A stretch of 64,000 nucleotides of DNA from assembly GCA_011049715.1 (NCBI GenBank), contig DRHF01000028.1, positions 7,449 through 71,448 of the forward strand. The letters are read 5' to 3'. The translations under genes and the position numbers were made by a program. Shown here one piece after another: positions 27,315 through 56,188 of this stretch. The notes under the pieces are model-generated. The model had not been told where the DNA came from. It did no database searches and was given only the letters and a program-made list of their open reading frames with translations. The stretch comes from Desulfobacterales bacterium (GTDB taxonomy: Bacteria; Desulfobacterota; Desulfobacteria; Desulfobacterales; UBA2156). Each line of letters starts with the position of its first letter. Positions within the stretch are counted from its first letter, which is position 1.

Positions 27315-28403
27315 ATGTTATGTCAAGGTAAAATGATACATTTATCTAAAAAAACAGATATAAAAGAACTTTCCACCGATCAACTGACACTTTGGCTCCA
27401 AAACAGAGGGTTCCGGTCTTTTCACGCGGGTCAAATTTTTAAGTGGGTTTATCTACACCAGGCAGACGCCTTTGAAACCATGACCGATTTGGCCAAAGAA
27501 TTGAGGCGCTTGCTTTCGGCCCACTTTACAATAAACCGGCTTGAGAAAAAACAGGTAGAGACATCAAAAGATGGCACTCGAAAATACCTTTTCAAACTGG
27601 CTGACGGAAAACATGTTGAAAGCGTAATCATTCCTGAAAGAGATCACGACACACTTTGTATATCAAGTCAGGTGGGGTGTGCCCAAGGATGCAGATTCTG
27701 TTTGACCGGCCGATACGGCTTGACCAGAGATCTCACAAAAGGTGAAATTGTCTCCCAGGTACGCGACATTACGAAAGAGATGAACGATTCCGCACGCCTG
27801 ACCAACATCGTTCTGATGGGGATGGGTGAACCGCTGGCCAATTATCAAAACGTTGTCCGTGCCCTTGAAACGATAACAGACAGTGATTTTGGTCTAAAAT
27901 TTTCAAACCGCAAGGTGACCCTCTCCACCGCCGGCCTGGTCTCCAAACTGCCTGATTTAAGTCGGGATACCCGGGTCAATCTGGCCGTATCGCTAAATGC
28001 CACAGAAAATAAGACCCGCGACAGGTTGATGCCGATCAACCGCAGGTTTCCGGTGGAAGAATTGATGGCTGCATGCAGGGGATATCGTTTGCACGCCGGT
28101 CGGAGGATCACTTTTGAATATATCCTGATTCAAGGTGTAAACGACTCGGTTGAAGACGCCAAACGCCTCTGTAAACTCATCAGGCCGATCAAGGCCAAAA
28201 TTAATCTCATTCCGCTTAACGAACACAAAAGTTGTGAGTTCAGACGGCCGTCAGCCTCCGTCATCGAACGGTTTCAAGAAATCCTGCATCAAAACAACTA
28301 TACGGTCATCATTCGGCAGAGCAAGGGGCAGGATATATCTGCTGCCTGTGGTCAGTTGAGTGCCCACCCGACGTCACACCGGATCAAACCGGATATCGCC
28401 TGA
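27315..28403 (+). CDS. rlmN: 23S rRNA/tRNA adenine-C2 methyltransferase, radical SAM
   Basis: 362 aa with the CxxxCxxC motif (CAQGCRFCLTG), GMGEPLAN, and CGQL near the C-terminus. The start could also be the ATG at 27333. Confidence 0.9.
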   Translation: MLCQGKMIHLSKKTDIKELSTDQLTLWLQNRGFRSFHAGQIFKWVYLHQADAFETMTDLAKELRRLLSAHFTINRLEKKQVETSKDGTRKYLFKLADGKHVESVIIPERDHDTLCISSQVGCAQGCRFCLTGRYGLTRDLTKGEIVSQVRDITKEMNDSARLTNIVLMGMGEPLANYQNVVRALETITDSDFGLKFSNRKVTLSTAGLVSKLPDLSRDTRVNLAVSLNATENKTRDRLMPINRRFPVEELMAACRGYRLHAGRRITFEYILIQGVNDSVEDAKRLCKLIRPIKAKINLIPLNEHKSCEFRRPSASVIERFQEILHQNNYTVIIRQSKGQDISAACGQLSAHPTSHRIKPDIA

Positions 28404-31400
28404 CCGGCTTCCAGTAGATCTGTTTTGCTTTTTCTATAAAAGATGCACCGCGTGTTTTGGTGGAAATCAACAGGGAATAGAGTGTGGGGACGACGATGAG
28501 CGTCAGAATAGTTGAAATCATAAGCCCAAAAATAACCACAAGCGCCATGGATTGCCACCATTGGGTCGATTCACTGACATAAGACATGCTCATTTTGTGA
28601 AAATCGAAGGAGATGCCGGTCACCATCGGCAAGAGGCCTAAAATGGTGGTAATAGCGGTCAGAAGGACCGGGCGAAGCCGGGTGGCGCCTGCGGATATAA
28701 CCGCGTGGTTCAGGTCCATTCCTCTTTTTATGAGCTTGTTGGTATAATCGATCAACACGATGGCATTGTTGACCACGACACCGGCCAAAGAGAACACTCC
28801 GACACCTGTCATGATGATGCCAAAGGGGGACTTAAAAAGGGCCAAGCCGAGAAACGCACCCCCCAAGGATAAGATAACCGATGTCAGAATAATCAAAGGC
28901 TGGGCCACGGAATTGAAAAGGGATACCAGGATGAGAAATATTAAAAACACCACGATTACAAACGTTTTGGAGAGAAATGCCTCTGATTCTTTCTGAAATT
29001 CAAATTCACCGGTAAATTGAATCCGATATCCGGCCGGGAGGGCAAAGCCTTTCAGCATCTTTTCCGCCTGCACACGAGCAACCGGACCGGGAATCTTTGT
29101 TTCATCCACATCGGCTTTAACGGTGACAACCCGGTTGTGATTGATTCGGACAATATTGCCGATACTCCCCGAGTAATCGATGGATGCGATGGAGGTCAGC
29201 GGGACCAATTGCCCTGAGGGGGCCGGCAGCATCAATTTATAGAGCACATCCAATACCGATCGGTCTGCTTTACGAAGGATGACGGAAATGTCATAATCTT
29301 CATCCCCCTCACGATAGGTGGAAATATTCAAGCCATTATATGCGGTTTTTAGAGCAAATCCGATAATCTCGGTCGAAAGACCGAAAAGAGCGGCCTTTTG
29401 CCGGTCCACCCTGACGTGTATGGACGGGATCCCCGAAACATAATCATCCTGGATATCCTCAATAAAGGGTATTTTTTCGAGAATCCCTCTGATCTTTTTT
29501 GCCATATCTCCCAGCACCCGGAAGTTATCGCCGGAAATTTCGATATTGATCGGTGCGCCGGTGGGCGGACCTTCTTCTGCTTTTGCAACTGTGATTTTTG
29601 CTCCCGGGATCCCCTTTACCCGTTTTCGAATCTCTTCGACGGTCAAGTTCGAAGACCGTCTGCGATCTTCCAGGTCAATAAACTGAATCCCGATATGGGT
29701 GGGTGAGTTGGGACTAAACGCATCGCCGCCCCCGGACAGGACAACCGCCTTGGCGTAAATATGTTCAATATTATCCATATCACCGGGTGCAAGAAACTCT
29801 TCGCCGCTCGCCTTGTGATGCAATCGGGGCATATAAAAAGATTCGTAACGATCGATGGGAGTCATGGGGGGGCCATCGATCTCTTTTTCCGCCTTTTCGA
29901 GCAAGGCCATTTCTGTTTTTTTAACGATACGATCGACGTATTCCAAATCCGCCCCTTCCGGCGGGACAATATTGACATAGAGGTTGTGGGGTTCGATATC
30001 TGGAAAAAATTCTACCGGTTTTTCCAGGCCTACCGCCAACAGCCAAAACTGAAAAAAGAGGATCAGAGATGCAAAGGATATCAGGACGACGGCGACCCGA
30101 TGTTTGAGGGATTTAGCGAGGAGACTTGCATAAGACCTAAGAAGAAACCCTTTGATCTCTACCGGTTTTTCACCGGCCTTTTGAACCTCATCCGCACTCA
30201 ATGGTTCATGGGCGCCTTTGCTTGGATGCTTGAGCTTTGCAAAGGTAGCGGTGAGTGCCGGGTTGATAACCAGCGCTACAAAAAGACTCGATGAAAGGGT
30301 GATGACCAGGGTGATAGGTAGATATTTCATGAATTCACCCATGATCCCGGGCCAGAAAATCAAGGGGAAAAAAGCGGCCAGGGTGGTGAGGGTGGAGCCG
30401 ATGACCGGTTGTGCCACTTCTGCAGTGGCCTGCATGGCAGCCTGAATACGGGAGACCCCCTGCTCCATGTAGCGATAAATATTTTCAATGATCACGATGG
30501 CGTTATCAACCAGCATCCCCAGAGCCAGGGTTAATGAAAAAAGGACCACCATATTGAGGGTGATATCGAGTGCATAAAGAATGGCAAAGGATAACAGCAT
30601 GGAAAAGGGAATGGCAAGACTGACCAAAACGGCGTTTCTAAACCCCAGGGCGAAAAAAAGAACGACAATGACCAACGCCAGTCCGGAAAGGATATTGTTT
30701 TCCAGATCCGCGACCATCAACCGAATATCTTTTGCCTGATCCATCAGCTTGGTAATCCGGGTTCCTTTTGGCCAGGCCGGTTTTTTTTGTTGAATCAGTT
30801 CTTCAATCTGATCGGCGATGGCGATGATGTTTTCACCCACCCGCTTTTTGACCGAAATATTGACCGATTCGCTGCCGTCCAACCGCGATCGGCTGGTTTC
30901 GTCTTTGAAGCCGTCTTTGACTTTGGCAAGATCCTTCAGATAGATCGGGTTGCCGTCTACCACGTTTAACACCAGGCCATAGATTTCGTCCGGTGTTGAA
31001 AATTCCCCGGGAACGCGCAGCTGATAACGACCGTCCCCGAGGGTGATAGCGCCACCCGAGGTGTTCTGGTTCTCGCTGTTGACCACGGTTTGGAATCTTG
31101 TCACCGGTATTTGATAGTAGGCAAGCTTGTCCGGTTCGACTTCGATTTTGATTTCGCGTTCGAGCCCACCGGTGACATCCACCTCCAAAACACCCGGAAT
31201 CGATTCGATGTCTTCTTCAAGATCATCGGCGATCTCCTTTAAACAGGTGAGTCCGCAATCACCTGATAGAGCGTAGACAACAATGGGTAGCTCGGAAAAA
31301 TTGACCTCAAAGACCGATGGGTCGTCTTCCAGGTCTCCCGGAAGATCCTTTTTGGCCTCATCCACTTTGTCTTTGACTTTTTGAAGAACCTCATCGATGT

Positions 31401-31698
31401 CGGTTCCCGGAATAAATTCGATATTGATCTGCGAGTCGCCCTCAGCGCTGACAGAGTGAATCTTTTTTACCCGGTCAAGCCCTTTGAGTTTTTTCTCTAT
31501 GGGGATCGTGATGGCGGTTTCAATATCCGAAGAGGAGACACCCTTATAGCTGGTTGAGATAAATACATTGGGAATCGTGATATCCGGCGCGCTCTCCCTA
31601 GGGAGCACCATATAGCAGTAAATCCCGACAACGAGTATAATCATGCCAAGGACCATCACACTGATCCGGTTTCGGATAGCGGTGGTTGAAATGATCAT
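28384..31698 (-). CDS. RND-family efflux transporter permease (AcrB/HAE1-like)
   Basis: 1104 aa from the ATG at 31698 (MIISTTAIRNRISV), which overlaps the MFP stop (ATGA). 12-TM architecture with two large periplasmic loops. The 43-codon upstream extension in the track is unlikely to be translated. Confidence 0.9.
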   Translation of the reverse strand: MIISTTAIRNRISVMVLGMIILVVGIYCYMVLPRESAPDITIPNVFISTSYKGVSSSDIETAITIPIEKKLKGLDRVKKIHSVSAEGDSQINIEFIPGTDIDEVLQKVKDKVDEAKKDLPGDLEDDPSVFEVNFSELPIVVYALSGDCGLTCLKEIADDLEEDIESIPGVLEVDVTGGLEREIKIEVEPDKLAYYQIPVTRFQTVVNSENQNTSGGAITLGDGRYQLRVPGEFSTPDEIYGLVLNVVDGNPIYLKDLAKVKDGFKDETSRSRLDGSESVNISVKKRVGENIIAIADQIEELIQQKKPAWPKGTRITKLMDQAKDIRLMVADLENNILSGLALVIVVLFFALGFRNAVLVSLAIPFSMLLSFAILYALDITLNMVVLFSLTLALGMLVDNAIVIIENIYRYMEQGVSRIQAAMQATAEVAQPVIGSTLTTLAAFFPLIFWPGIMGEFMKYLPITLVITLSSSLFVALVINPALTATFAKLKHPSKGAHEPLSADEVQKAGEKPVEIKGFLLRSYASLLAKSLKHRVAVVLISFASLILFFQFWLLAVGLEKPVEFFPDIEPHNLYVNIVPPEGADLEYVDRIVKKTEMALLEKAEKEIDGPPMTPIDRYESFYMPRLHHKASGEEFLAPGDMDNIEHIYAKAVVLSGGGDAFSPNSPTHIGIQFIDLEDRRRSSNLTVEEIRKRVKGIPGAKITVAKAEEGPPTGAPINIEISGDNFRVLGDMAKKIRGILEKIPFIEDIQDDYVSGIPSIHVRVDRQKAALFGLSTEIIGFALKTAYNGLNISTYREGDEDYDISVILRKADRSVLDVLYKLMLPAPSGQLVPLTSIASIDYSGSIGNIVRINHNRVVTVKADVDETKIPGPVARVQAEKMLKGFALPAGYRIQFTGEFEFQKESEAFLSKTFVIVVFLIFLILVSLFNSVAQPLIILTSVILSLGGAFLGLALFKSPFGIIMTGVGVFSLAGVVVNNAIVLIDYTNKLIKRGMDLNHAVISAGATRLRPVLLTAITTILGLLPMVTGISFDFHKMSMSYVSESTQWWQSMALVVIFGLMISTILTLIVVPTLYSLLISTKTRGASFIEKAKQIYWKPVRRYPV

Positions 31699-32858
31699 TT
31701 CATCAAATCCTCCATATCCTTGATACTGCGGACGATTTTTACTTCCTGGCCCGGGTTGACATTTCGTTGTCCCACCACGATCACCCGATCCCCTTTTTTG
31801 AGTCCGCTTTTGATCTGTATGCGCCATCCGTCAAGCAATCCCAACTCCACCGTTCGGGTAGCGACATGTTTATCATTGACGATATAAACAATTTTTTCCT
31901 TGGGTCGGTTGATAACAGCATAAATTGGCACTGAAATACCGTTTAAAATCTCTTTTTTTACAATCTCGACCCGGGCAAACATATCCGGCAGGATCTCTTT
32001 GTTGACATTTTCGATGACCAGATTTAAATTATACAACCGGGCCATGGAGTCGGCCGTGTTTGACAGAAAATGTTTTTTTGCCCTAAACGTTTTTCCGCCC
32101 AGGGCATCGATTTTAACTTCAAAATCATTCAAATGTCTGACCGCATCCACATCGGATTCAGGGATACCCACCTTGACCTTGATACGGTTAATCTGAATAA
32201 TTTCCGCCACCGGATCAGCGGCACTCAAATATTGGCCTTCTTCGATAAAAAGACGGTTGACGACTCCACTCAACGGGGAGCGGATGATACATCGCTCCAG
32301 ATCCAGGGCAGCGTTTGCCATGGCGGCCTTGAGGTTCTCCACTTTTGCAAAAGTTTCATCAAGCCGGGCCTGGGTCGATGAGCCTATTTTTTGTAATTTT
32401 TCAAGCCGATTCAGGGAAGCTTTGGCTGCATTGTAAGAAGCTCTGATGGAAAGAAAGTTATTTTTAAAATCCCTGTTATCAAGCCGGGCGATGATGTTCC
32501 CCTTTATGATATGTTCGCCCTCTTTAACGGATTTCTTGAGCACTTTTCCCTTCACTTCCGATAATACCTTCAATTGAATCCAAGGGGCGGTCACCCCGGG
32601 CAGGTTGATACGATCACGGATAGGCGAGGGGGCAATTTCGAGGGTCACCACGTTCACCGCGGTTTGCTCCTGGGCGAGGCCGGCTGATTTTTCAGCGGCA
32701 ATTCGCTCTTTTTTGGTTTGAATCCGTTGAAAAAGATTCGCGATGATTACCACCAATACAATCAGAAAAATAAATGGCAGGGTCCCCCAGATTCGTTCGA
32801 TCCATCTCTTTTTTGTGCGAGACGGTTTGGGCTGTTCTGTTTCTGTGTTTGCTTTCAT
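31695..32858 (-). CDS. RND efflux periplasmic adaptor (membrane fusion protein)
   Basis: 387 aa. N-terminal TM helix, coiled-coil hairpin region and barrel domains. Translationally coupled to the RND permease. Confidence 0.85.
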   Translation of the reverse strand: MKANTETEQPKPSRTKKRWIERIWGTLPFIFLIVLVVIIANLFQRIQTKKERIAAEKSAGLAQEQTAVNVVTLEIAPSPIRDRINLPGVTAPWIQLKVLSEVKGKVLKKSVKEGEHIIKGNIIARLDNRDFKNNFLSIRASYNAAKASLNRLEKLQKIGSSTQARLDETFAKVENLKAAMANAALDLERCIIRSPLSGVVNRLFIEEGQYLSAADPVAEIIQINRIKVKVGIPESDVDAVRHLNDFEVKIDALGGKTFRAKKHFLSNTADSMARLYNLNLVIENVNKEILPDMFARVEIVKKEILNGISVPIYAVINRPKEKIVYIVNDKHVATRTVELGLLDGWRIQIKSGLKKGDRVIVVGQRNVNPGQEVKIVRSIKDMEDLMK

Positions 32859-32895: not shown

Positions 32896-33594
32896 TTACA
32901 GGTTAAAAGGGCCGATACCTGATTTTCCAATCTGTATTTTTGGATCGTTGAGGATATATTCGTCCGGAAACGGTTTCTTGAGAATCATCCGGAGGAGATG
33001 GTGCAGATAAAAATCCATCTGCTCCTTTAGGTTCAGGTAATTTTCAGATACCAGGCTGTGTAACCCGATACCATCAAGAAACGCTAAAAAATTCACCGCA
33101 ATCTTTTCGGCATCCTTGGCGATTTCGGGTCGAAAGAGACCTTTTGATATGCCATCAAGCAATATATCCACCACCATCTGGCGAGATTCGACCAGCATTT
33201 CCTTTACCAGATGACGCTTGTTAAAGAGAACCCCATTTTTAACCAGGGTCTGCTGCATGACCTCATAGATCAGACGCATGGTCTCCAAATCTTCAGGATC
33301 GCAGATCTCGGCCATTGTTTCGGCTACGACATAGAATTGCCGAACCGGATCCTCGATGCCTTCAGTTTTTCCGGCGATACGCCGCCACAACTGTGCGGAC
33401 CACTCCCTGATGGCGGCCAGAAAGATTTCTTCTTTGGTTGCGAAATACTCATATATGGTTCCTTTGCCGATATCGGCGCCTTCAGCAATTCGGCTGACAC
33501 TGGTAGCCTGGTAACCTTTTTGAGAAAACAATTTCAACGCGACGCGGGCAATCAGTCTTGTTTTTTCTTCCCTGTTCACAATGATAGGTGACAT
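32896..33594 (-). CDS. TetR/AcrR-family transcriptional regulator
   Basis: 232 aa with an N-terminal TetR HTH (FSQKGYQATSVSRIAEGADIGKGTIYEYF). It is the first gene of the tetR-MFP-RND operon. Confidence 0.85.
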   Translation of the reverse strand: MSPIIVNREEKTRLIARVALKLFSQKGYQATSVSRIAEGADIGKGTIYEYFATKEEIFLAAIREWSAQLWRRIAGKTEGIEDPVRQFYVVAETMAEICDPEDLETMRLIYEVMQQTLVKNGVLFNKRHLVKEMLVESRQMVVDILLDGISKGLFRPEIAKDAEKIAVNFLAFLDGIGLHSLVSENYLNLKEQMDFYLHHLLRMILKKPFPDEYILNDPKIQIGKSGIGPFNL

Positions 33595-33741: not shown

Positions 33742-33885
33742 CTATTAAGCTAAAATCAGCTCATAAAAAGACACTATAATTTCAAATAAATGGCCGACCG
33801 GTCGGTCATTTTGATCGGAAAGACCGAATTCATCCCGTGTGTGGAGATCGGAAATACCGCTTGACTCATAGAATCCTTTTCCTTA
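33742..33885. repeat. copy A of a 144-bp intergenic repeat (tetR / acyl-CoA synthetase control region)
   Basis: Aligned by eye with 59677-59820: same orientation, 9 mismatches in 144 nt. Contains the palindrome at 33789-33810. Confidence 0.85.
33789..33810. promoter_or_regulatory. 22-bp near-perfect palindrome, candidate TetR operator (copy A)
   Basis: AATGGCCGACCGGTCGGTCATT; its reverse complement differs at 2 positions. Lies in the tetR-proximal intergenic region. Confidence 0.45.
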
Positions 33886-34176
33886 TCGATGTGTTCAGCG
33901 CCGTCTCTGAAAAATTTATCCAGAATGAAATCAAATCAGATGATCCCGGACTTATCATCTACACCTCCGGCACCACCGGCAAGCCCAAAGGGGCGATTCT
34001 CACTCAGAAGAACCTGATCCACGATGCTCGAACTATCATCAATATTTGGGAAATCACCGATTCAGATGTATTGTGTCACGCCCTCCCACTTTTTCATATC
34101 CACGGGTTATGTTTTGCACTCCACACCGCTTTGATGGCAGGATCTGTGGTGCTCATGCTCGATGAATTTTCGCCGG
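33886..34176 (+). pseudogene. internal fragment of an acyl-CoA synthetase gene (diverged copy of 60329-60619)
   Basis: 291 nt with 12 mismatches against 60329-60619. Encodes the AMP-binding motif IYTSGTTGKPKG. It lacks its own 5' ~500 nt and everything after the EFSP codons. Track ORF 33837..34349 is a chimeric read-through. Confidence 0.85.
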
Positions 34177-34372
34177 ACTGGTTTCCAGTAGATCTGTTTT
34201 GCTTTTTCGATAAAAAGCCAGTTGACGACTCCGCCCTTCAACGGGGAGCGGATGATACATCGCTCCAGATTCTGGGCAGCGTTTGCCATGGCGGCCTTGA
34301 GGTTCTCCACCCTTGCAAAGGTTTCATCAAGTTGGGCCTGGGTCGATGAGCCTATTTTTCTGTAAATTTTCT
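34177..34372 (-). pseudogene. fused remnant: last codons of an RND permease joined to an internal piece of an MFP gene
   Basis: 34177-34208 matches 28403-28434 (2 mismatches; encodes EKAKQIYWKPVRR on the minus strand). 34206-34372 matches 32241-32402 (about 90 percent by eye, with a 3-nt indel). Confidence 0.8.
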
Positions 34373-34373
34373 C

Positions 34374-34402
34374 TTGACAACCGGAAAAAGAACCAATCTA
34401 AT
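34374..34402 (+). promoter_or_regulatory. candidate promoter of the GntR gene
   Basis: TTGACA at 34374-34379, a 17-nt spacer, then TCTAAT at 34397-34402. Followed by two GTATACAAA boxes (34406-34414 and 34442-34450). Confidence 0.3.
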
Positions 34403-34449
34403 AGAGTATACAAAATAGTCGAAATTATTAAGGACGATATGGTATACAA

Positions 34450-35106
34450 ATGGCTAAATCATTATTGAGAGAAAAAATTTACCAAACAATCAGAGATGAT
34501 ATTACCTACGGAAAGTTCGCACCTGGAGAGCGACTTGTTGAAGACAGATTGGTTGAAGAGTTTAAAGCCAGCAGGAGTCCTATACGAGAAGCTTTGAGGC
34601 AGTTGGAAAGTGAGGGCTTGATTACATTTGAAAGAAATAAAGGAATTACAATTGCCAGGCTATCGATTAAGCAGGTGGATGAAATATATACCTTGCGTTG
34701 CTTATTGGAAAGCGGTGCTGCGTGTCTAACTGCTGAAAGCATCACGAAAAAAGACGTGGCACATCTAAGAGATTTGCAGGAGAAGTTAAGAGTAGCGGTA
34801 AAAAATATGGATCTACGAGATTGGCTTCATAATAATGCCTTGTTTCATAATTTTTTGTGTGAACACTGTGGAAATAGCAACTTGATTCAAGTGCTTGATA
34901 ATCTTAAACGAAGGGTTTACCGATATCACTACATAACTGTTAGTGTTCCCGGGCATTTTGAAACTTACCTTGGGCATCACGAAGGAATGTTGCAAGCATG
35001 CGAAAAGAATGATGGAGAAATGGCAGAAAAATATATGAAGCTCCATTTGAAAACAGTTAAAGATGTCCTGATAAACCATTTAAATAAAATAACTCCAAAC
35101 TATTAG
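34450..35106 (+). CDS. GntR-family transcriptional regulator (FadR/FCD subfamily)
   Basis: 218 aa. N-terminal winged HTH (RLVEDRLVEEFKASRSPIREALRQLESEGLI) and a C-terminal helical FCD-like domain. Confidence 0.85.
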   Translation: MAKSLLREKIYQTIRDDITYGKFAPGERLVEDRLVEEFKASRSPIREALRQLESEGLITFERNKGITIARLSIKQVDEIYTLRCLLESGAACLTAESITKKDVAHLRDLQEKLRVAVKNMDLRDWLHNNALFHNFLCEHCGNSNLIQVLDNLKRRVYRYHYITVSVPGHFETYLGHHEGMLQACEKNDGEMAEKYMKLHLKTVKDVLINHLNKITPNY

Positions 35107-35111
35107 TGGGA

Positions 35112-35558
35112 ATGTTCGGAAACGGAGCAAAGCAGGTGATTAAAAAAATCGATCATATCGGGATTGCTGTTAAGGATCTGAAAAATACTTTGAATATGTA
35201 CAAAAGGGTTTATGGACTGGAGGCAATAAAAATAGAAACGCATGAAGATATAAAGATAAAGATCGCATTCATCCCGATAGGGGAAGTCCTTATCGAACTA
35301 TTGGAAGCAACAGAGCCCGGAGCGGGAAGGATAGGGCATTTCCTGGAGGAAAAAGGCGAAGGCCTTCACCATATAGCCTTAAGAGTAGAAAGTATCAATC
35401 GAGCAATGGAAAAGCTTAAACAGATTAATATCCCACTCAGGGATAAAGAGCCTCGGGATGGAGGTGATGGTTCTAAGATAGCATTTATCGAGCCGGAGTC
35501 CACACAAAACGTTCTAACCGAACTTGTTGAAAGAAAACGAGAGGTGACGGGAAATTGA
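35112..35558 (+). CDS. methylmalonyl-CoA epimerase-like VOC (glyoxalase fold) protein
   Basis: Epimerase pattern IDHIGIAVKDL...IELLE...GEGLHHIALRV...IAFIEP...VLTELVE. The ATG at 35112 is preferred; the track GTG at 35106 overlaps the GntR stop. Confidence 0.8.
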   Translation: MFGNGAKQVIKKIDHIGIAVKDLKNTLNMYKRVYGLEAIKIETHEDIKIKIAFIPIGEVLIELLEATEPGAGRIGHFLEEKGEGLHHIALRVESINRAMEKLKQINIPLRDKEPRDGGDGSKIAFIEPESTQNVLTELVERKREVTGN

Positions 35559-35560
35559 GA

Positions 35561-37135
35561 ATGAACATTCGGGATCTGCTGGAGAAACAAGCTGAAAAGT
35601 ATCCTGATAAAATATTTCTTTATTTTGAGGAAGAAAAAATCAATTACCAGGGTTTTAATCTTACAGTCAATCGAATTGCGAACGCGTTTAAAAAAATGGG
35701 GATCAAAAAAGGTGAGATGGTAGCCATCATGCTTCCCAACTCTCCTGCTTTTCTTTATACATGGATGGGCCTTAATAAAATAGGTGCCGTGGAGGTGCCT
35801 ATCAATATAGGCTTTAAAGAAACTGAGGTGAAATATATTCTACAGCATTCGGAAGCTTCAGCGATTGTAATCCATCAGGGCTACTATCCTATATTGAGCG
35901 GGATCAAAAAGGAAGAATTGCCCGATTTAAGAAATGTCATTTTTCATGGGGATGAAGCCACTCCTTACGAAACTATCCCATTCTCTACTTTGCTGGATGA
36001 GAAGGCTGAACTGGAAGAGGTCGCCATTTCCGAAGAAGATCCAGCTGCTTGTATTTACACCTCGGGAACCACAGATCGTCCTAAAGGTGTCCTTAATTCC
36101 CACAGAAGCTGGGTGCTAACAGGGGAGGCCTATGTATATACTGTGGGGATTACCTCTGAGGATCGTGTCATGACCCCCAACCCGCTTTTTCATGCAAATG
36201 CTCAGGTCTATTCAACCATGGGCTCCCTGGTGGCGGGAGCAAGTTTAATTTTACTGAAACATTTCAGTTCCTCTCGAATTTTGGAACAGGCACGGCATTA
36301 TAATGCAACTAAGATGGTCCTGGTTCAGGCTGTAACACCTTGGTTCTGGAATCGTCCGCGCAGGGAAGATGATGGAGACACCCCTGTAAAGACGATGGTG
36401 GCAGGAAATGTGCCTGCAGAAATATATCATGATTTTGAGCAACGGTTTCAGCTAAATATCCAGACCATTTACTCACTTACAGAGGCGCCCTTTGCCATTA
36501 TGGGGCCCAGACAAGGGACACAACCGAGGAAACCAGGGGGTATTGGTGTGCCTATGGAACATCCTGACCCGTCGATTAAAAACGAGGTAAAGATTGTTGA
36601 TGATACAGGCGCAGAGATTCCTTTGGGGCAGCAGGGAGAAATTATCATCCGAAATCCATCTACGATGATTGGATATTTTAAGAATCCTGAAAAGACGGCT
36701 GAAACAAAAAAAGATGGTTGGATTCATACAGGTGATATAGGGTATCAGGATGAAAATGGTTATCTATTCTTCGTAGGAAGGAAAAAGGAAGTTATACGCC
36801 GTAGAGGAGAACTGATTTCCCCTGCTGAGATAGAATCCGTTATTAATAGTCACCCAAGTGTTGATGAAACAGCCGTCATGGGTGTCCCATCCGGATTGGG
36901 AACAGGAGAAGAGGAGGTAAAAGCCTATGTGCGTTTGAAGCCTGGTGCAATCATTAATTCCGAAGAGATTGTATCCTGGTGTAATGGGAAATTAGCGGAA
37001 TTCAAGATCCCCCGTTTCCTGGAATTCTGCAATGATTTTCCCAGAAGCGCCATAGGCCGCATTCAAAAAAGCATATTAAAGGCAGAAAAACAAGATCTCA
37101 CTGATGGATGCTATGACCGCCTGAAGGAGGGATGA
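35561..37135 (+). CDS. AMP-forming acyl-CoA ligase (class I adenylate-forming enzyme)
   Basis: About 524 aa with motifs IYTSGTTDRPKGV, GWIHTGDIG and RKKEVIRRRGELISPAEIE. The ATG at 35561 lies just after the epimerase stop. Confidence 0.85.
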   Translation: MNIRDLLEKQAEKYPDKIFLYFEEEKINYQGFNLTVNRIANAFKKMGIKKGEMVAIMLPNSPAFLYTWMGLNKIGAVEVPINIGFKETEVKYILQHSEASAIVIHQGYYPILSGIKKEELPDLRNVIFHGDEATPYETIPFSTLLDEKAELEEVAISEEDPAACIYTSGTTDRPKGVLNSHRSWVLTGEAYVYTVGITSEDRVMTPNPLFHANAQVYSTMGSLVAGASLILLKHFSSSRILEQARHYNATKMVLVQAVTPWFWNRPRREDDGDTPVKTMVAGNVPAEIYHDFEQRFQLNIQTIYSLTEAPFAIMGPRQGTQPRKPGGIGVPMEHPDPSIKNEVKIVDDTGAEIPLGQQGEIIIRNPSTMIGYFKNPEKTAETKKDGWIHTGDIGYQDENGYLFFVGRKKEVIRRRGELISPAEIESVINSHPSVDETAVMGVPSGLGTGEEEVKAYVRLKPGAIINSEEIVSWCNGKLAEFKIPRFLEFCNDFPRSAIGRIQKSILKAEKQDLTDGCYDRLKEG

Positions 37136-37208
37136 GATGTTACTTTGCAAACAACTTCGGATTAGGCAAAAATAATAGACTTTTAGGTGACTAAAAGGAG
37201 TGTGTATT

Positions 37209-38240
37209 GTGGGAATAAAGGTTATACAGCAAGGTGTTGGATATTTAGGTAAAAAAGCGATTGAGCTCATGTTAAGGAAAAATATTGAGGTGGTTGCCGC
37301 GATAGGCCATCAAAGCCATATAGGGGAAGATATAGGCAAATTGGCTGGATTAGGGGAGGTGGGAGTTAAAGTCACTAATGATGTTCAGAAGGTGCTCGAG
37401 AACGTGAAAGCAGATGTAGTTTCAAATTGTACGGGAACAACATTATTGGGGGTATACGAACACATAAAGCCTTTTATTGAAGCCGGTATTAATGTGGTGA
37501 CAATGGCAGAAGAGTTTGGTTATCCATGGTACAGAGCACCTAAGCTGTCCAAAGAAATACATACAAATGCTAAAGCAAACAATGTGACAGTAGTCGGCAC
37601 GGGTCTTAATCCCGGTTTTTCATGGGATTTTATTCCCATCGCCTACATTAGTGCCTGTTGGAGGGTTGACAAAATAAAGGCTCGTAGGGTAACTGACTGG
37701 AGCAAAACAAGCCCCAGGCGGGCTCTTTTGAGGTTTGGTAAGAAGCCAGAAGAGTTTAGGAAAGGGGTGGTGGAAGGAAAAATTCCTTTGCATACGGGAT
37801 TCTATGAATGCATGCACTTGCTTGCGGATTCACTAAATTGGAAATTGGATAAGATAGTAGTAACTTGGGAAATGGCGGTTTCAAAAAGTTTTCGTGAGGC
37901 GGAGTTTGTTACTGTACAGCCTGGAACGACTGTTGGTTTCAAACAAGTGGCAACAGGAATAGTAGGTGGAGAAGCCAGGATAGTATTAGAGCTGTGTCCT
38001 TTTGTACACCCAAATTTGGACGAGGACGGAGTAGAATCAGGAGAAACCATATGGATCGAAGGAGAGCCGAGTTTTACGATCACCACAAAATGGGCCCCAG
38101 TAGAAGATGGAACGCCGCTTTGCACGGTAGCTCGGCTGGTGAACACTTTACAATCTGCTATAGAAGCCGAAAGCGGATTGCTTGCTGTGACCGATCTGCC
38201 ATTGACTAAAACCGTGCGAATTAGAGAAGTTGTCAAATGA
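37209..38240 (+). CDS. DapB-like NAD(P)-binding oxidoreductase; candidate of the 2,4-diaminopentanoate dehydrogenase / native amine dehydrogenase family
   Basis: About 343 aa. N-terminal Rossmann motif (IKVIQQGVGYLGKKAI) and a C-terminal DapB-like domain. The GTG at 37209 lies 8 nt after AAGGAG. The family call is from memory and is not certain. Confidence 0.5.
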   Translation: MGIKVIQQGVGYLGKKAIELMLRKNIEVVAAIGHQSHIGEDIGKLAGLGEVGVKVTNDVQKVLENVKADVVSNCTGTTLLGVYEHIKPFIEAGINVVTMAEEFGYPWYRAPKLSKEIHTNAKANNVTVVGTGLNPGFSWDFIPIAYISACWRVDKIKARRVTDWSKTSPRRALLRFGKKPEEFRKGVVEGKIPLHTGFYECMHLLADSLNWKLDKIVVTWEMAVSKSFREAEFVTVQPGTTVGFKQVATGIVGGEARIVLELCPFVHPNLDEDGVESGETIWIEGEPSFTITTKWAPVEDGTPLCTVARLVNTLQSAIEAESGLLAVTDLPLTKTVRIREVVK

Positions 38241-38375
38241 AGTTTATAATATGGGAGTCGCTCATGGCTCGATACGGGGTTACTTTTATCCCAAGATGAT
38301 TCTAGATGGAAAGACAGGTTTACCTTTAAACGATATAGCTTTCTCTCGATTAAAGAAGTATCACGATAAAATAGG

Positions 38376-39749
38376 ATGGTTATGGTGAAAGAAGAGAAGT
38401 GGTCACGGTTACAAGATAAGATATATGAAGCGTATATGCAAAGGACACCTAAGTCCAAACAGATGTACAAGAGAGCACTCACGAACTTAGCTGGTGGTGT
38501 ATGTGGTCACGCAAGGCTGTTCCAGCCTTACCCACTTTATATGACTCATGGAATAGAAAGCAAAATATGGGATGTAGATACAAATGAGTACATCGATTGC
38601 TTTTTAAATGCCGGCTCTTTACTCTTAGGTCATTCCCATCCGGAGGTTATTAAGGAAATAAGGCAAGAAAGTGGAAAGGGATTGCTTGTTTACAACTCAG
38701 ATTTGGAAGTTAGGTGTGCTGAGCGGCTAAAAGAGGTCATCCCCTGTGCTGAGAGAGTGCGATTTGCAAACAGCGGTACTGAGGCAGTTATGTTCGCAGT
38801 TAGGGTTGCGAGGGAGTTTACTGGAAAGAATAAGATAATCAAGTTTTATGGGCATTACCACGGTCAAGATGACCAATTCCTAATTGGTACATCGACTAAT
38901 GAAGATGAGGTGATTTCATCAGGAGTGCCTCAAGACAGTTTAACAAATACGGTCTTATTGAGGTATAATTTCATCGAGGATGTAGTTCGTAAACTTGACG
39001 AAGATGATGATATTGCTGGAATAATTTTAGATCCGCAGATGAGCATGGGAGGCATATTCCCTGCAAGCATAGAATACTTAAAAAAGCTGAGACGTTTGTC
39101 AGAAGAGCGAGGAGTTGTTTTAATATTTGATGAGGTGATAACTGGTTTCAGATTAGCATTAGGAGGGGCACAGGAATATTTTGGGGTCACGCCTGACCTG
39201 GCGTGTTATTCTAAAAGTATAGCTGGTGGAGCCAAGTTTGCTGCATTTATGGGAAAGGAAGAGATAATGGAAAGGTTAGTTCCGGATGGCTTCAGCGCAT
39301 ACACCGGGGGGGGAAAGTCTGTTTTCCAATCGGGGACATATAATGACGGGATGGCGGCAATAGCGGGAGCCCTAGCAGCAATTAAGGTCTACAAGAAATT
39401 GAGCGAAAAAGGTGAGTATGAAAAGCTACATAAACGTACTGCAAATTTAGCTAAAGCCATTGAAATAGCATTTAAGGAGCGACGAATAGGGTGTCAGGTG
39501 AATTGCTTAGGTGCCTCTCTCAAAATATTTCTAACAGATCTGGAACCTTCATTCGAAACGTATTGCAAGCTTGATCGAATGGTTCTTTTCTTGTTCTTCT
39601 TAAGCCTAATCAATCATGGAATAATATTGTCATGGCCTTCATCGGGGTCAATTTTTCTATCCTTTGTACACACAGATGAGGATAATGAAAAGATAATTGA
39701 AGCAGTTAATTTAAGTTTGGAAAAATACAGGTTTGAAGAGGCTATATGA
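38376..39749 (+). CDS. class III (omega/GSA-aminomutase-like) PLP-dependent aminotransferase
   Basis: 457 aa with motifs FANSGTEAVMFAVRVAR, DEVITGFRL and YSKSIAGG (the putative PLP lysine). Confidence 0.85.
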   Translation: MVMVKEEKWSRLQDKIYEAYMQRTPKSKQMYKRALTNLAGGVCGHARLFQPYPLYMTHGIESKIWDVDTNEYIDCFLNAGSLLLGHSHPEVIKEIRQESGKGLLVYNSDLEVRCAERLKEVIPCAERVRFANSGTEAVMFAVRVAREFTGKNKIIKFYGHYHGQDDQFLIGTSTNEDEVISSGVPQDSLTNTVLLRYNFIEDVVRKLDEDDDIAGIILDPQMSMGGIFPASIEYLKKLRRLSEERGVVLIFDEVITGFRLALGGAQEYFGVTPDLACYSKSIAGGAKFAAFMGKEEIMERLVPDGFSAYTGGGKSVFQSGTYNDGMAAIAGALAAIKVYKKLSEKGEYEKLHKRTANLAKAIEIAFKERRIGCQVNCLGASLKIFLTDLEPSFETYCKLDRMVLFLFFLSLINHGIILSWPSSGSIFLSFVHTDEDNEKIIEAVNLSLEKYRFEEAI

Positions 39750-40003
39750 AGGAAACTACAAACTCTATCGAGGCTATGGAGAGATCACCTCCGGAAATCT
39801 CTGGCACCTACGGTTCGTCAAGGAAGAGCTTTACAGGCATCTTTGAGAATAACTTAAATCAGGCGATTAAAAATGATGGGAAAGGAGGTTTATTACCTTA
39901 ATAATCGCGAGTGGAAAAAGTCTAGACGTTAAGGAATCTCACAACGATGACAAAGCTAAAGTAAAATTAAACAAATAATACATTAAAATAAGGAGATAAG
40001 ATC

Positions 40004-41185
40004 ATGAAGAACAAAATATCGTTGCCATTTTTAACTATAATATTGATAACCAGTTATCTATTGGTCGTTAGTGCTATATCAGCACCAGCGGCAGCCGTTG
40101 AGCGAAAGCCGATATTAGTAGGGATGAGCTGGGACATCACCGGCTGGAATGCACCAAGTGGACGACCAGAGGGTGATGGCGCTATTCTAGCTGTAGAGGA
40201 TTGGAACGAAAGGGGAGGAGTTTTTGGCGGACATAAGGTTGAATACCTTTTTCGTGATGACGAATCAGACCCAATAAAGGCTGCGGGTATAGCACGAGAG
40301 TTTATTAGGAAAAGAGCGATCGCTGTAGTAGGCGGTGCTTCTTCCACCGGAGCTATCGCTACGGTAGGGATATTAGCCCCAGCGAAGATCCCTTTTGTCC
40401 ATAACGCAGGTTCACTAAAAGCCCTTCAAAGGGGCCCAGATGGTAAAGTATACTCCTTTAGTTCTGTAGGCTATACACCCCAATGGCCTGCGGTAACATT
40501 TCATCACATGCAAAAGAACAGTTACAAGAGGATTGCTTTAATCTACACGAAAGCCGCATTTGGGATAGCTGTAGCTGAGGAGGTCCGCAAGGCAGTTGTG
40601 GAGAAATGGGGGCCAAAATATGGAATGGAGATTGTCTCTGATATTGGGGTTGAGATGAAAGCTGTAGATCTTTCCAGTGAAGTAGCTAAGATTAAGAAGA
40701 GTAAGCCTGACGCCATATGGTGCGGCCTTTATGCAGGAAACCAAGCAGCTTTTGCTGTGGGTCTCAGGACAACCAACTGGCTGCCGCCTCCGCCCTTTTA
40801 CGTTATAGACGCCTGGGTCCACGAGGTCATGGCAGCGCGTGGCCGCAAACTCATGTGGGGTGCTGTGGGCTGGGGCGGTGTTGACTCCCGTAGAAAAGAT
40901 GTGCAGGAGCTGAATGCCAGGTTTAAGAAGAGGTTTGGATACGAATCTATAGGGGCGATGCTACTTGGTTATGATGCTATGAATGTGATACTTCATGCGA
41001 TAGATAAAGTGGGGACCGATCCTTTAAAGATTCGAGACATAATTGAAAAGGAGGATTTCCCCAGTTTCAGGGGCAGACAAGGGACGTTGACATACTACAA
41101 CGCGGAAAATGGGTATAATGCACTGAAACCAGAGGACCATGTGTTATTCCGAGTGAATGAAAAAGGCGAGGAGATCATTGAGTGA
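40004..41185 (+). CDS. ABC transporter periplasmic substrate-binding protein (LivJ/K-like, type 1 PBP)
   Basis: 393 aa. Signal peptide (MKNKISLPFLTIILITSYLLVVSAISAPAAA) and a Leu/Ile/Val-binding-protein-like fold pattern. Confidence 0.85.
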   Translation: MKNKISLPFLTIILITSYLLVVSAISAPAAAVERKPILVGMSWDITGWNAPSGRPEGDGAILAVEDWNERGGVFGGHKVEYLFRDDESDPIKAAGIAREFIRKRAIAVVGGASSTGAIATVGILAPAKIPFVHNAGSLKALQRGPDGKVYSFSSVGYTPQWPAVTFHHMQKNSYKRIALIYTKAAFGIAVAEEVRKAVVEKWGPKYGMEIVSDIGVEMKAVDLSSEVAKIKKSKPDAIWCGLYAGNQAAFAVGLRTTNWLPPPPFYVIDAWVHEVMAARGRKLMWGAVGWGGVDSRRKDVQELNARFKKRFGYESIGAMLLGYDAMNVILHAIDKVGTDPLKIRDIIEKEDFPSFRGRQGTLTYYNAENGYNALKPEDHVLFRVNEKGEEIIE

Positions 41186-41370
41186 TACCAGGAATGGCAG
41201 TGGTACTCGATATTGTACTTAGTTCGCTAGGAGGCTGTCCGAAAATAAAGATTCTGAAACTACTATCATAGCATATTTTGCTAAATAATAGTGAAACATA
41301 CTGGATATAGTAATTAAGATAATGATATTTTCATTCTCGTATAGGGACAGACTTCTAGTAGGCAGTTCTA

Positions 41371-41465
41371 AGCCGAGGATGCTGCAGCTCTGAGACGTCC
41401 AAGGGTGACGCTGTAGTATACTACTGAGAACCCTTGGCAAGGAAGGAGATGCGGTATCCTCGGCT
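41371..41465 (+). other. 95-nt nested inverted-repeat element inside a 528-nt noncoding gap (possible structured RNA)
   Basis: Three helices are visible. AGCCGAGGAT (41371-41380) pairs with ATCCTCGGCT (41456-41465). CCAAGGGT (41399-41406) pairs with ACCCTTGG (41430-41437). The central palindrome is GTAGTATACTAC (41413-41424). Confidence 0.4.
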
Positions 41466-41713
41466 TGCCCGTAGGGTAAAATGCCAAAATAAATCCTATT
41501 CCTGGATGTCACCTTTGGTCTACTCCAGCTAATTGAATCCATTATCTCTAAAGCTTGCAATTATTGCTATAAACAACCCTTTGGCATTCTTATTATGCAA
41601 CTATAGGGTAAAAGGAACTGATAGTAATTAGAGATAAGGTGCAGTTGCTCAAGTAACGATAATGTCAAAAGTTTTATGAAAACTATTGACCAAATACTAT
41701 TAGGAGGATAATT

Positions 41714-42697: not shown

Positions 42698-42807
42698 CAG
42701 CCAACAATGAAATAGCGAAAGGAGGCACTTTTATAAGCTACAAAATACATGGCTACAGGTTTGAAAATAACTAGGTTTATAGATAGTTTTAAAGGAGGAT
42801 TATACAA

Positions 42808-43788: not shown

Positions 43789-43971
43789 AATCAAGAGTAG
43801 CAGAAACTTGTAAAAGTTTCCTCTTATGAATTTCATTAACAATATTGATAGGTTATTCAAGACGGGGTCAGCATTAAAGTATTTAACGTTAACCCAAGAA
43901 AGCATAAAAGCATAATTTTTTACTATGGGACCCAGCCCAGGACTTAGATACTTAGATAGGGACAAAGCATA

Positions 43972-44835: not shown

Positions 44836-44886
44836 GTAACACATAGACAGGGAATACCTCTCGTATAGTAACGTAAACGAAGTGCA

Positions 44887-45825: not shown

Positions 45826-45842
45826 AGGTTTACATTTCAATC

Positions 45843-46604: not shown

Positions 46605-46605
46605 G

Positions 46606-56185: not shown

Positions 56186-56188
56186 GAA

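What the first reader, a model, noticed from the sequence alone, without database searches (positions are those of the whole stretch)
33742..34372. Mosaic scar made of four diverged copies of nearby loci joined at microhomologies, consistent with a tandem duplication followed by deletions and island replacement
Read by eye, four collinear blocks each match another place in this window in the same orientation.
- Block 1: 33742-33885 matches 59677-59820 (tetR/ACS intergenic DNA, 9 mismatches in 144 nt).
- Block 2: 33886-34176 matches 60329-60619 (interior of the acyl-CoA synthetase gene). There are 12 mismatches in 291 nt. Eleven fall in the first ~135 nt, and about 145 identical nt follow, which looks like a gene-conversion or recombination tract.
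- Block 3: 34177-34208 matches 28403-28434 (the final codons of the RND permease).
- Block 4: 34206-34372 matches 32241-32402 (middle of the MFP gene), about 90 percent with a 3-nt indel.

Each junction sits on a short shared string: CCTTA(TC), TCGCC, and TTC-GATAAAAAG.

The block order is what a simple four-step history would leave:
1. A unit of about 6 kb, running from the RND 3' end to the middle of the ACS gene, was tandemly duplicated. The ACS-middle / RND-3' junction is the duplication novel joint.
2. Most of the second RND copy and half of the second MFP copy were deleted.
3. About 500 nt of the first ACS copy were deleted.
4. The stretch of the second unit equivalent to 32403-33741 (MFP 5' half, tetR, part of the intergenic region) was replaced by the 25-kb island.

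The surviving functional genes are RND-MFP-tetR from unit 1 and ACS from unit 2.
Basis: partly seen in the sequence, partly recalled or inferred. Interest (0 to 1): 0.65.

Follow-up and report, generated by a model that had tools for sequence, protein, structure and literature searches.

The report
Decayed duplication scar beside a catabolic island
A 630-base patchwork of dead gene fragments next to a 25-kb acquired gene island in an uncultured marine-sediment sulfate-reducer relative is real, and it records a duplication-type rearrangement later trimmed by sloppy deletions, which is an ordinary kind of genome scar.

Summary
Window 33742-34372 consists of four collinear, same-strand, diverged copies of nearby DNA: the tetR/ACS intergenic region, the ACS interior, the RND 3' end and the MFP middle. 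BLAST E-values run from 1e-12 to 1e-135. At least four independent metagenome assemblies contain the junctions, so it is not a misassembly.

A 94.6 %-identical relative (UBA2156-type) has tetR directly beside an intact ACS gene, with no scar and no island.

The simple in-situ four-step history is only partly supported:
- Junction 1 also occurs in widespread relatives ("Z-type") that have neither the island nor a working ACS gene.
- The scar fragments are no closer to the resident genes than alleles of sister lineages are.
- The CCTTA(TC) microhomology is not at the breakpoint.
- The "gene-conversion tract" is only weakly supported.

My best reading is a non-functional relic with the topology of a direct duplication of the RND-MFP-tetR-ACS' unit. 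It was built stepwise through illegitimate joins (1-12 nt of microhomology). The island occupies the second unit.

I could not decide whether the second unit arose in place long ago or was imported from a sister lineage. This is a known kind of feature and of low to moderate interest.

The parts
28384..31827 (-). Resident RND permease gene of unit 1. Its last codons are the template for block 3. It overlaps the RlmN stop at 28403.
   Evidence: Pfam ACR_tran, E 1e-204. Conserved in L001, L003 and L055.
31695..32858 (-). Resident membrane-fusion protein gene. Codons about 153-207 are the template for block 4.
   Evidence: Pfam HlyD_D23 and HlyD_3; alignments.
32896..33594 (-). Resident TetR-family regulator, first gene of the tetR-MFP-RND operon.
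   Evidence: Pfam TetR_N. An 11/12 sigma-70-like promoter lies on the minus strand at 33699-33672.
33742..33885 (+). Block 1: the native tetR/ACS intergenic DNA, continuous with the tetR side. It forms a 144-nt direct repeat with 59677-59820. It contains a near-perfect palindrome at 33788-33811.
   Evidence: Relatives run straight through it from tetR. The palindrome appears.
33885..33886 (+). Junction 1: the intergenic region joined to ACS codon 145, removing about 508 nt. One nt of microhomology. Shared with Z-type relatives.
   Evidence: Also seen in Logan contigs of X2, X3 and X6.
33886..34176 (+). Block 2: a fragment of the acyl-CoA (malonyl/methylmalonyl-CoA-type) synthetase, codons 145-241, in frame, with no stop codons. 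It is a distinct allele ('S-type').
   Evidence: Pfam AMP-binding on ORF 33837-34349. Codon comparison. Allele comparison.
34171..34182 (+). Junction 2: the duplication-type novel joint, ACS middle to RND 3' end, inside the imperfect microhomology TCGCCnGnCCGG.
   Evidence: Spanned by L049, L050, L051 and L052.
34177..34208 (+). Block 3: the last codons of an RND permease copy, on the antisense strand.
34199..34208 (+). Junction 3: a 3.8-kb deletion between the RND 3' end and the MFP middle, at the 10-nt repeat TTCGATAAAA.
34206..34372 (+). Block 4: a fragment of an MFP gene copy (codons about 153-207, antisense). It carries an in-frame 3-nt insertion, a 1-nt frameshift and private non-synonymous changes.
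34366..34372 (+). Junction 4: the MFP fragment joined to the island's left end, just upstream of the GntR promoter-like TTGACA, with about 5 nt of A/T microhomology.
   Evidence: Homology to GntR modules in L086, L087, L089 and L090 starts at 34367.
34373..59676 (+). 25.3-kb catabolic island. Genes in order: GntR, glyoxalase/epimerase-like, second acyl-CoA synthetase, diaminopentanoate-dehydrogenase-like, class III aminotransferase, LIV-type ABC transporter, two ornithine-cyclodeaminase-family genes, hydantoinase A/B, aldehyde:ferredoxin oxidoreductase, ThiS-like, degenerate DDE transposase, B12-binding/MeaB/methylmalonyl-CoA-mutase-type genes.
   Evidence: Pfam scans. GC 0.40-0.44 against 0.45-0.49 in the flanks. 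Absent from U-type and Z-type relatives.
59677..59820 (+). Second copy of block 1. It continues into the intact ACS upstream region.
59896..61437 (+). Intact acyl-CoA synthetase gene ('W2' allele). The database gene call is 509 aa and starts with MFEES.
   Evidence: Pfam AMP-binding plus AMP-binding_C. Cluster member P0255.

Best explanation
Window 33742-34372 is a non-functional rearrangement scar, not a gene or a regulatory device.

The ancestral layout was RlmN | RND-MFP-tetR (minus strand) | intergenic region | ACS (plus strand). A direct, tandem-type duplication of the roughly 6.3-kb unit from the RND 3' end to the ACS middle created the novel joint ACS-mid/RND-3' (junction 2). The redundant material was then trimmed in separate illegitimate-recombination events:
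- Junction 1 removed the ACS promoter-proximal 508 nt of the left, truncated ACS copy.
- Junction 3 removed 3.8 kb of the second RND-MFP copy.
- A 25-kb catabolic island took the place of the second MFP 5' half, tetR and part of the intergenic region (junction 4 and the right border at 59676/59677).

The working genes are RND-MFP-tetR of unit 1 and ACS of unit 2.

Shown:
- the blocks, their order and the joints
- the ancestral layout in relatives
- independence from assembly
- junction 1 is older than the split from Z-type relatives

Inferred:
- that a duplication, rather than another route, made junction 2
- the order of events
- that the duplication is old, at least as old as the split between the window lineage and Z-type, and about as deep as the divergence among the sampled alleles, with later recombination between copies or lineages blurring the ages

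I put the duplication topology at about 0.8. I put this in-situ version at about 0.45. The version in which unit 2 was imported from a sister lineage (rival 1) gets about 0.4.
For: - All four blocks are confirmed, collinear and on the same strand. By my own counting, about 1 in 48 random arrangements of three same-locus fragments would fit a single-wrap duplication order.
- Junction 2 joins the distal end of the unit to its proximal end, within 10/12 shared bases.
- Relatives L003, L059 and L060 show tetR-intergenic-ACS with no scar and no island.
- Everything broken in the window is redundant with an intact copy.
- Junctions 2-4 lie in short microhomologies (5-12 nt) and junction 1 in a single shared base, as expected for RecA-independent joins.
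- The whole scar sits in one JGI contig (L049). Parts of it are in L001, L050, L051, L052 and L054, which come from other assemblies.
- In block 1 the two window copies are closer to each other (9/144) than either is to Z-type (17-23) or U-type (23-24).
- Block 4 shows pseudogene decay: a frameshift, and all private changes non-synonymous.
Against: - The scar fragments are 4-9 % diverged from the resident genes and are not their closest relatives. Block 2 lacks all three private changes of the resident ACS allele. Its private-change count (6) equals that of the functional U-type allele.
- Block 2's changes are 8 synonymous-codon against 4 non-synonymous-codon differences, with no stop codons in 97 codons. 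That is how a working allele evolves, not a copy truncated from birth.
- Block 4 shares 2-3 states with the outgroup L004 against the window, Z-type and U-type genes.
- Z-type relatives carry junction 1 but nothing else of the scar. Under this model that needs a 27.5-kb deletion starting inside the 291-nt remnant.
- No intermediate with an intact second unit was found in any contig or run examined.
Confidence: 0.45

Rival explanations
1. Import from a sister lineage, by homology-facilitated illegitimate recombination or Campbell-type integration.

The common ancestor of the window lineage and Z-type had a single ACS gene (S-type allele), which junction 1 inactivated. Z-type went on losing it in small steps. 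The window lineage instead took up a roughly 26-kb segment from a sister lineage. In that donor the pump operon had already been reduced to the RND-3' and MFP-middle remnants and replaced by the island.

The segment's right end recombined homologously in or beyond ACS. Its left end joined illegitimately, at TCGCCnGnCCGG, inside the native ACS pseudogene. This makes a duplication-like topology from two different alleles.
For: - Junction 1 plus S-type bases are shared with Z-type contigs that lack everything else.
- Z-type shows further small deletions typical of stepwise pseudogene decay.
- A third allele (L063) shows that ACS loss in a single-copy context happens in this clade.
- S, W2, V and U ACS alleles are roughly equidistant, and S evolves like a functional allele.
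- Block 4 lies outside the window/Z-type/U-type group at 2-3 sites.
- The RND-MFP-tetR region is visibly mosaic between lineages, so recombination between them is frequent.
- The window type was seen only in one group of samples, whereas Z-type and U-type are widespread.
- The mechanism is documented in several bacteria (PMC3240628; discussed for relic-leaving gene displacement in PMC5361080).
Against: - The required donor arrangement (RlmN, RND remnant, MFP remnant, island, ACS) was not found.
- None of the 15 listed members of the 34-member ACS cluster carries the S-type signature.
- The homologous crossover cannot be located.
- Block 1's two window copies are more alike than the native copy is to Z-type. 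This needs later conversion or a hypervariable patch.
Confidence: 0.4
2. Single-event template switching (MMBIR/FoSTeS-like). While a break at the island's insertion point was being repaired, the polymerase copied short stretches from nearby templates and joined them at microhomologies. All junctions would have formed at once.
For: The fragments are short (32-291 nt) and come from loci within 6 kb of the original site, and three of the four junctions lie in microhomologies.
Against: - Junction 1 exists on its own in Z-type relatives.
- Block 1 is not a copy but the native intergenic DNA, continuous with tetR.
- The order and orientation fit a duplication exactly, which random template choice would rarely give.
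- The fragments are 4-9 % diverged from the supposed templates.
Confidence: 0.05
3. Assembly chimera: strain variants of a mixed population were stitched together by the assembler.
For: - The source is a metagenome.
- The Logan contigs of run X1 lack the scar at 99 % or more likeness, and one contig stops at 33740.
Against: - The shared strings at the joints are 1-12 nt, far below any assembler k-mer.
- L049 (JGI) spans all four junctions in one contig. L050, L051, L052, L001 and L054, from other assemblies and runs, span subsets with 0-1 differences inside the scar.
- The Logan gap is explained if the diverged repeat copies were collapsed as bubbles.
Confidence: 0.02

Closest known systems
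Tandem duplication join points and their decay in bacterial chromosomes (RecA-independent, microhomology-mediated duplication followed by loss or remodelling)
   Same: A novel joint links the distal end of a unit to its proximal end in direct orientation, at a short imperfect homology. The remnants are collinear, and only redundant copies are damaged.
   Different: The copies here are 4-9 % diverged and not sister sequences. No intact second unit is seen anywhere. One junction is shared with lineages that lack the duplication joint.
Homology-facilitated illegitimate recombination (one homologous anchor, one microhomology join; PMC3240628), and relic-leaving displacement of gene cassettes (PMC5361080)
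   Same: Foreign DNA bearing an island sits next to relics of the displaced native gene. The illegitimate join lies in a short G+C-rich microhomology. Allele divergence is at the level seen between lineages.
   Different: The donor arrangement and the homologous crossover were not observed. The inserted DNA begins with relics of the recipient's own neighbouring genes, which requires a donor with the same neighbourhood.
Genomic islands of the integrase/att type
   Same: A 25-kb block of accessory catabolic genes with lower G+C, absent from close relatives and flanked by a direct repeat.
   Different: There is no integrase, no tRNA and no att-like short repeat. The flanking repeat is 144 nt of ordinary intergenic DNA. 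The only transposase is an internal, degenerate fragment with no terminal inverted repeats.
MMBIR/FoSTeS complex rearrangements (reviewed in PMC2583991)
   Same: Several short segments from nearby loci are joined, three of the four junctions at microhomologies.
   Different: The junctions did not all arise together, and the order is strictly that of a duplication.

Membership tests
Remnant of an in-situ tandem duplication | A novel joint connects the distal end of the unit to its proximal end, in direct orientation | tested here: met
   ACS position 60619 is joined to RND position 28403 at 34176/34177, within TCGCCnGnCCGG.
Remnant of an in-situ tandem duplication | All remnants are collinear with two successive units | tested here: met
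   The order is intergenic, ACS-mid, joint, RND-3', MFP-mid, island, intergenic, ACS.
Remnant of an in-situ tandem duplication | A single-copy ancestral arrangement exists in relatives | tested here: met
   L003, L059 and L060 show tetR-intergenic-ACS contiguous at 92-95 % identity.
Remnant of an in-situ tandem duplication | Duplicate fragments are sister to the resident copies rather than to other lineages' alleles | tested here: inconclusive
   Met for block 1. Not met for block 2, which is a basal allele with none of W2's private changes. Not met for block 4. The region is a recombination mosaic.
Remnant of an in-situ tandem duplication | Intermediate states exist, such as an intact second unit behind the joint | tested here: not met
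   None was found in the genome and metagenome scans or in the Logan contigs of 11 runs (X1-X4, X6, X7, X13, X19, X32-X34) laid across junctions 2-4. Absence in these collections is not proof.
Homology-facilitated illegitimate recombination / import from a sister lineage | One illegitimate end at a microhomology | tested here: met
   Junction 2.
Homology-facilitated illegitimate recombination / import from a sister lineage | A homologous crossover at the other end | tested here: inconclusive
   Sliding divergence against Z-type, V-type and U-type shows no clear switch point.
Homology-facilitated illegitimate recombination / import from a sister lineage | The donor arrangement exists in nature | tested here: not met
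   All contigs with the identical GntR gene carry the window arrangement. GntR homologues at 76-89 % identity sit in unrelated contexts.
Integrase-type genomic island | An integrase or recombinase at a border, and a tRNA or att target | tested here: not met
   Pfam scans of the ORFs of 100 aa or more between 34450 and 59413 found no integrase or recombinase. No tRNA in the window.
Integrase-type genomic island | Compositional deviation and absence from close relatives | tested here: met
Assembly artefact | Junctions supported by a single assembly only | tested here: not met
   L049, L050, L051, L052, L001 and L054.

The most novel reading that the evidence does not exclude
Position 33885 (equivalent to 59820), one base before a perfect 10-nt palindrome (TTTCATGAAA) in the ancestral tetR/ACS intergenic region, may be a sequence-directed recurrent breakpoint. 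Two different deletion alleles use exactly this base: junction 1, joined to ACS codon 145, and L063, joined to window 61711. Module boundaries also recur nearby at 61470/61471-61483. If so, the DNA downstream of the tetR-side control region would be a hotspot where gene modules (ACS, the PilZ/ParA-like module, the island) are repeatedly swapped or deleted by a hairpin- or site-directed mechanism.
Probability: 0.1. Interest if true: 0.55.

Novelty: new member of a known kind. Interest (0 to 1): 0.3.

Why it matters
The locus is a cleanly resolved natural record of how an accessory catabolic island became fixed next to an efflux-pump operon in an uncultured Desulfobacteraceae-type population. 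At least five structural alleles of the same locus coexist in marine sediments:
- the ancestral U-type
- the scar plus island (the window type)
- Z-type
- L063-type
- V-type

It could serve as a test case for telling in-situ duplication from inter-lineage import in metagenomes. It is also a caution for annotators: the 170-aa ORF across the scar is called as an AMP-binding protein, but it is a chimera of dead fragments. It introduces no new mechanism.

Tried and rejected
1. A search of the 5.8-billion-protein index with the 51-aa translation of block 4, to find a living MFP allele of the scar type. No candidate shared enough words, so the search was uninformative.
2. An exact look-up of the scar ORF and of the long ACS ORF. 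Neither is on record under those starts.
3. High-stringency laying of Logan contigs from the source-type runs, to get read-like support. The scar is missing from those contigs, probably collapsed with its paralogues. This neither supports nor refutes it.
4. A search for a full-length S-type ACS among the 90 %-identity cluster members. The 15 of 34 members shown are U-, W2- or V-type.
5. A search for runs holding S-type words beyond the Z-type deletion point. Only five words were sampled, and the hits were ordinary ACS alleles.
6. Sliding divergence to locate a recombination crossover right of ACS. No clear signal.
7. Reading the block-1 TTGACT...TAATTT as the ACS promoter. The consensus scan does not call it, so I make no promoter claim. 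The palindrome at 33788-33811 could be an operator or a terminator-like hairpin; this is unresolved.
8. Terminal inverted repeats around the DDE transposase fragments. None of 14 nt or more.
9. tRNA and Rfam scans of the window. Nothing found.
Full report

Yes.

| Block | Scar coordinates | Matches | Identity | E-value |
|---|---|---|---|---|
| 1 | 33742-33885 | 59677-59820 | 9 mismatches in 144 nt | 1e-58 |
| 2 | 33885-34184 | 60328-60627 | 95 % | 3e-135 |
| 3 | 34170-34215 | 28396-28441 | 4 mismatches in 46 nt | 1.5e-12 |
| 4 | 34202-34371 | 32237-32402 | 90.6 %, two indels | 6e-62 |

The only other repeat in the window is a 559-nt patch shared by two adjacent ornithine-cyclodeaminase-family genes inside the island.

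The gene assignments hold:
- RlmN at 27315-28403(+)
- RND permease at 28384-31827(-)
- membrane-fusion protein (MFP) at 31695-32858(-)
- TetR regulator at 32896-33594(-)
- an AMP-binding acyl-CoA synthetase (ACS) at 59896-61437(+), whose ~69 %-identical homologues are named malonyl/methylmalonyl-CoA synthetase by their sources

**2. Is it an assembly artefact?**

No. Other assemblies contain the same sequence.
- L049 (JGI sample 3300005253) covers 32679-35372 in one contig and is identical to the window throughout the scar.
- L050 and L001 (a MEGAHIT assembly of SRR1555744) cover 34039-37604 and 22896-34149.
- L051 and L054 (JGI 3300005663) and L052 (SRR1555743) cover further parts, with 0-1 differences inside the scar.

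The strings shared at the joints are 1-12 nt, far shorter than any assembler word.

The Logan contigs of run X1 stop at 33740 and resume at 34281. I attribute this to the diverged repeat copies being collapsed by the assembler. It is not evidence either way.

**3. The joints**

- **Junction 1** (33885/33886) joins ...CCTTTTCCTTA to TCGATG... of ACS codon 145. Only one base is shared at the breakpoint. It would be relevant only if a further 8 nt had been lost.
- **Junction 2** (34176/34177) is the ACS-middle/RND-3' joint. It lies in TCGCCnGnCCGG, with 10 of 12 bases shared.
- **Junction 3** lies in TTCGATAAAA, 10 nt. The relatives and the scar agree on G where the window's RND gene now has T.
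- **Junction 4** joins the MFP fragment to the island. It could be defined because homologous GntR modules in other contigs begin to align at 34367. The overlap is about 5 nt of ATTTT, just upstream of the TTGACA in front of GntR.

**4. Relatives**

The genome and metagenome scans with TetR, plus exact-protein look-ups, gave five structural types of this locus.

| Type | Contigs | Layout |
|---|---|---|
| U-type | L003 (Desulfobacteraceae bacterium UBA2156), L059, L060; about 94.6 % identical | RND-MFP-tetR, intergenic region, intact ACS. No scar, no island. Also lacks window 61471-63794. |
| Window type | L001, L049-L052, L054 | Scar plus island |
| Z-type | L053, L055-L058; about 96 % identical | tetR, block 1, the same junction 1, about 83 nt of block 2 carrying every scar-specific base, then a new joint at CACCTCCGGC to window 61483, followed by two further small deletions. 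No island, no working ACS. |
| L063-type | L063 only | ...CCTTTTCCTTA joined directly to window 61711 |
| V-type | L091, L092 | An ACS allele 95 % identical to the window's, with the downstream module but different upstream DNA |

Z-type and U-type variants occur in many marine-sediment runs. The window type appears only in one group of samples.

**5. What the topology says**

Block 1 is not a copy. It is the native intergenic DNA, continuous with tetR in every relative. The sequence then runs through:
- ACS-middle
- the joint
- RND-3'
- MFP-middle
- the island
- a second copy of the intergenic region
- the intact ACS gene

This is exactly the order of two successive units of a direct duplication of the roughly 6.3 kb from the RND 3' end to the ACS middle. 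Three internal losses follow, one of them filled by the island.

By my own counting, only about 1 in 48 random orders and orientations of three fragments would fit. I therefore accept the duplication-type topology with a probability of about 0.8.

**6. What the divergence says**

The simple in-situ history weakens here.

*Block 2*. Comparing the scar allele (S), the window's intact ACS (W2), V-type and U-type gives these private changes:

| Allele | Private changes |
|---|---|
| S | 6 |
| W2 | 3 |
| V | 3 |
| U | 6 |

S carries none of W2's private changes, so the four alleles are roughly equidistant. S differs from W2 by 8 synonymous-codon and 4 non-synonymous-codon differences. It has no stop codon or frameshift in 97 codons. 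That is the pattern of a working allele, whereas a copy truncated at junction 2 would never have worked.

*Block 4*. The scar keeps the outgroup (L004) state at 2-3 sites, including Q165 and N186. At those sites the window, Z-type and U-type genes share derived states. It is about equally far (10-12 differences in 166 nt) from all three. It does show pseudogene decay: a frameshift, an extra codon, and private changes that are all non-synonymous.

*Block 1* points the other way. The two window copies differ at 9 sites. The scar copy differs from Z-type at 17 sites and from U-type at 24.

No single tree fits all three blocks. A sliding comparison of the window, Z-type and U-type over RND-MFP-tetR shows a recombination mosaic, so conflict of this kind is expected.

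*The identical tract in block 2.* All 12 S-W2 mismatches taken together are unevenly spread (P = 0.002). But functional allele pairs show the same gradient (W2-U 9:3, W2-V 5:2), and the scar's private changes alone give P = 0.08. Gene conversion is possible but not required.

**7. Two histories remain**

Z-type would then have lost 27.5 kb in one deletion starting inside the 291-nt remnant.

(b) *Import from a sister lineage.* Junction 1 killed a single-copy S-type ACS in the common ancestor of the window lineage and Z-type. Z-type kept decaying in small steps. The window lineage took up a roughly 26-kb segment from a sister lineage in which the pump operon had already been reduced and replaced by the island. 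One end recombined homologously. The other joined illegitimately inside the dead ACS gene, which is homology-facilitated illegitimate recombination (described in PMC3240628; relic-leaving displacement is discussed in PMC5361080).

Both histories need five or six events. I put (a) at about 0.45 and (b) at about 0.40. The diagnostic sequences that would decide between them are listed under next steps.

Single-event template switching is unlikely, because junction 1 exists on its own. A chimeric assembly is excluded for practical purposes.

**8. The island**

Window 34373-59676 carries, in order:
- a GntR regulator
- a glyoxalase/epimerase-like gene
- a second acyl-CoA synthetase
- a diaminopentanoate-dehydrogenase-like gene
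- a class III aminotransferase
- a LIV-type ABC transporter
- two ornithine-cyclodeaminase-family genes
- hydantoinase A and B
- an aldehyde:ferredoxin oxidoreductase
- a ThiS-like gene
- a split, degenerate DDE transposase
- B12-binding, MeaB and mutase genes

Its G+C is 0.40-0.44, against 0.45-0.49 in the flanks. No integrase or recombinase turned up in the Pfam scans of its large ORFs. There is no tRNA and no Rfam match in the window.

Homologous GntR-epimerase-ACS2 and B12-MeaB-mutase modules (76-89 % at the protein level) occur in other marine contigs, in other contexts and without the 18.6 kb in between. The island is therefore itself a mosaic.

**9. Function**

I see no evidence that the scar does anything. 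The 170-aa ORF at 33837-34349 is a chimera: intergenic read-through, ACS codons 145-241, then antisense RND and MFP sequence. Gene callers annotate it as an AMP-binding protein.

The scar duplicates a palindrome (33788-33811 and 59723-59746). It could be a TetR operator or a terminator-like hairpin. This is untested.

**10. Verdict**

This is a known kind of feature, a rearrangement scar beside an acquired island. It is well documented here by population-level alleles and is of low to moderate interest.

The one oddity is that two different deletion alleles share the same left breakpoint at 33885, next to a 10-nt palindrome. The second allele rests on a single 1.2-kb contig.

Noticed in passing
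window 33885 / 59820; L063:560-620: Two different deletion alleles use exactly the same left breakpoint, after ...CCTTTTCCTTA. One is junction 1, joined to ACS codon 145. The other is L063, joined to window 61711. In the ancestral sequence the next bases are A followed by the perfect palindrome TTTCATGAAA. The second allele rests on one 1169-nt contig.
   Followed up: partly
window 61471-63794: A 2.3-kb module (a 109-aa ORF, a PilZ-domain protein, a 123-aa ORF and a ParA/MinD-like ATPase with a zinc ribbon) is present in the window, Z-type and V-type. U-type relatives have 10 unrelated bases in its place. Z-type also lacks 61534-61618 and 61667-61853.
   Followed up: partly
window 42051-42609 and 43142-43700: Two adjacent ornithine-cyclodeaminase-family genes in the island share a 559-nt patch at 93.6 % identity. 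This points to a local gene duplication or conversion.
   Followed up: no
window 54216-55510: A split DDE transposase: a DDE_5 N-terminal part, then a weak DDE_Tnp_1 C-terminal part in a second ORF. No terminal inverted repeats of 14 nt or more. It is probably a dead insertion sequence lying between the two halves of the island.
   Followed up: partly
L049 (equivalent to window 33390-33405 and 35373-35722): One near-identical JGI contig has a 16-nt deletion inside tetR, which is a frameshift. It also has a 350-nt deletion that fuses the glyoxalase-like gene to the second acyl-CoA synthetase. These are either population variants or assembly errors.
   Followed up: no
window 34367-37116 and 55703-58644; L086, L088: In other marine contigs, homologues of the island's first three genes and of its B12-binding/MeaB/mutase genes are linked by a different, shorter middle (mutase, thiolase, ChsH2-like). 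The 18.6 kb at window 37117-55702 therefore looks like a later insertion into an older module.
   Followed up: partly
L091:1-131, L092:1-67: V-type contigs carry an ACS allele 95 % identical to the window's. Homology starts only 29 nt before the start codon, at window 59867. The upstream DNA matches nothing in the window, so this is a fifth arrangement of the locus.
   Followed up: no
window 33788-33811 and 59723-59746: A near-perfect 24-nt palindrome (AAATGGCCGACCGGTCGGTCATTT) lies in both copies of block 1. It is identical in Z-type relatives and differs at 2 bases in U-type. It is scored as terminator-like on both strands but lies in a divergent promoter region, so it may be the TetR operator.
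   Followed up: partly
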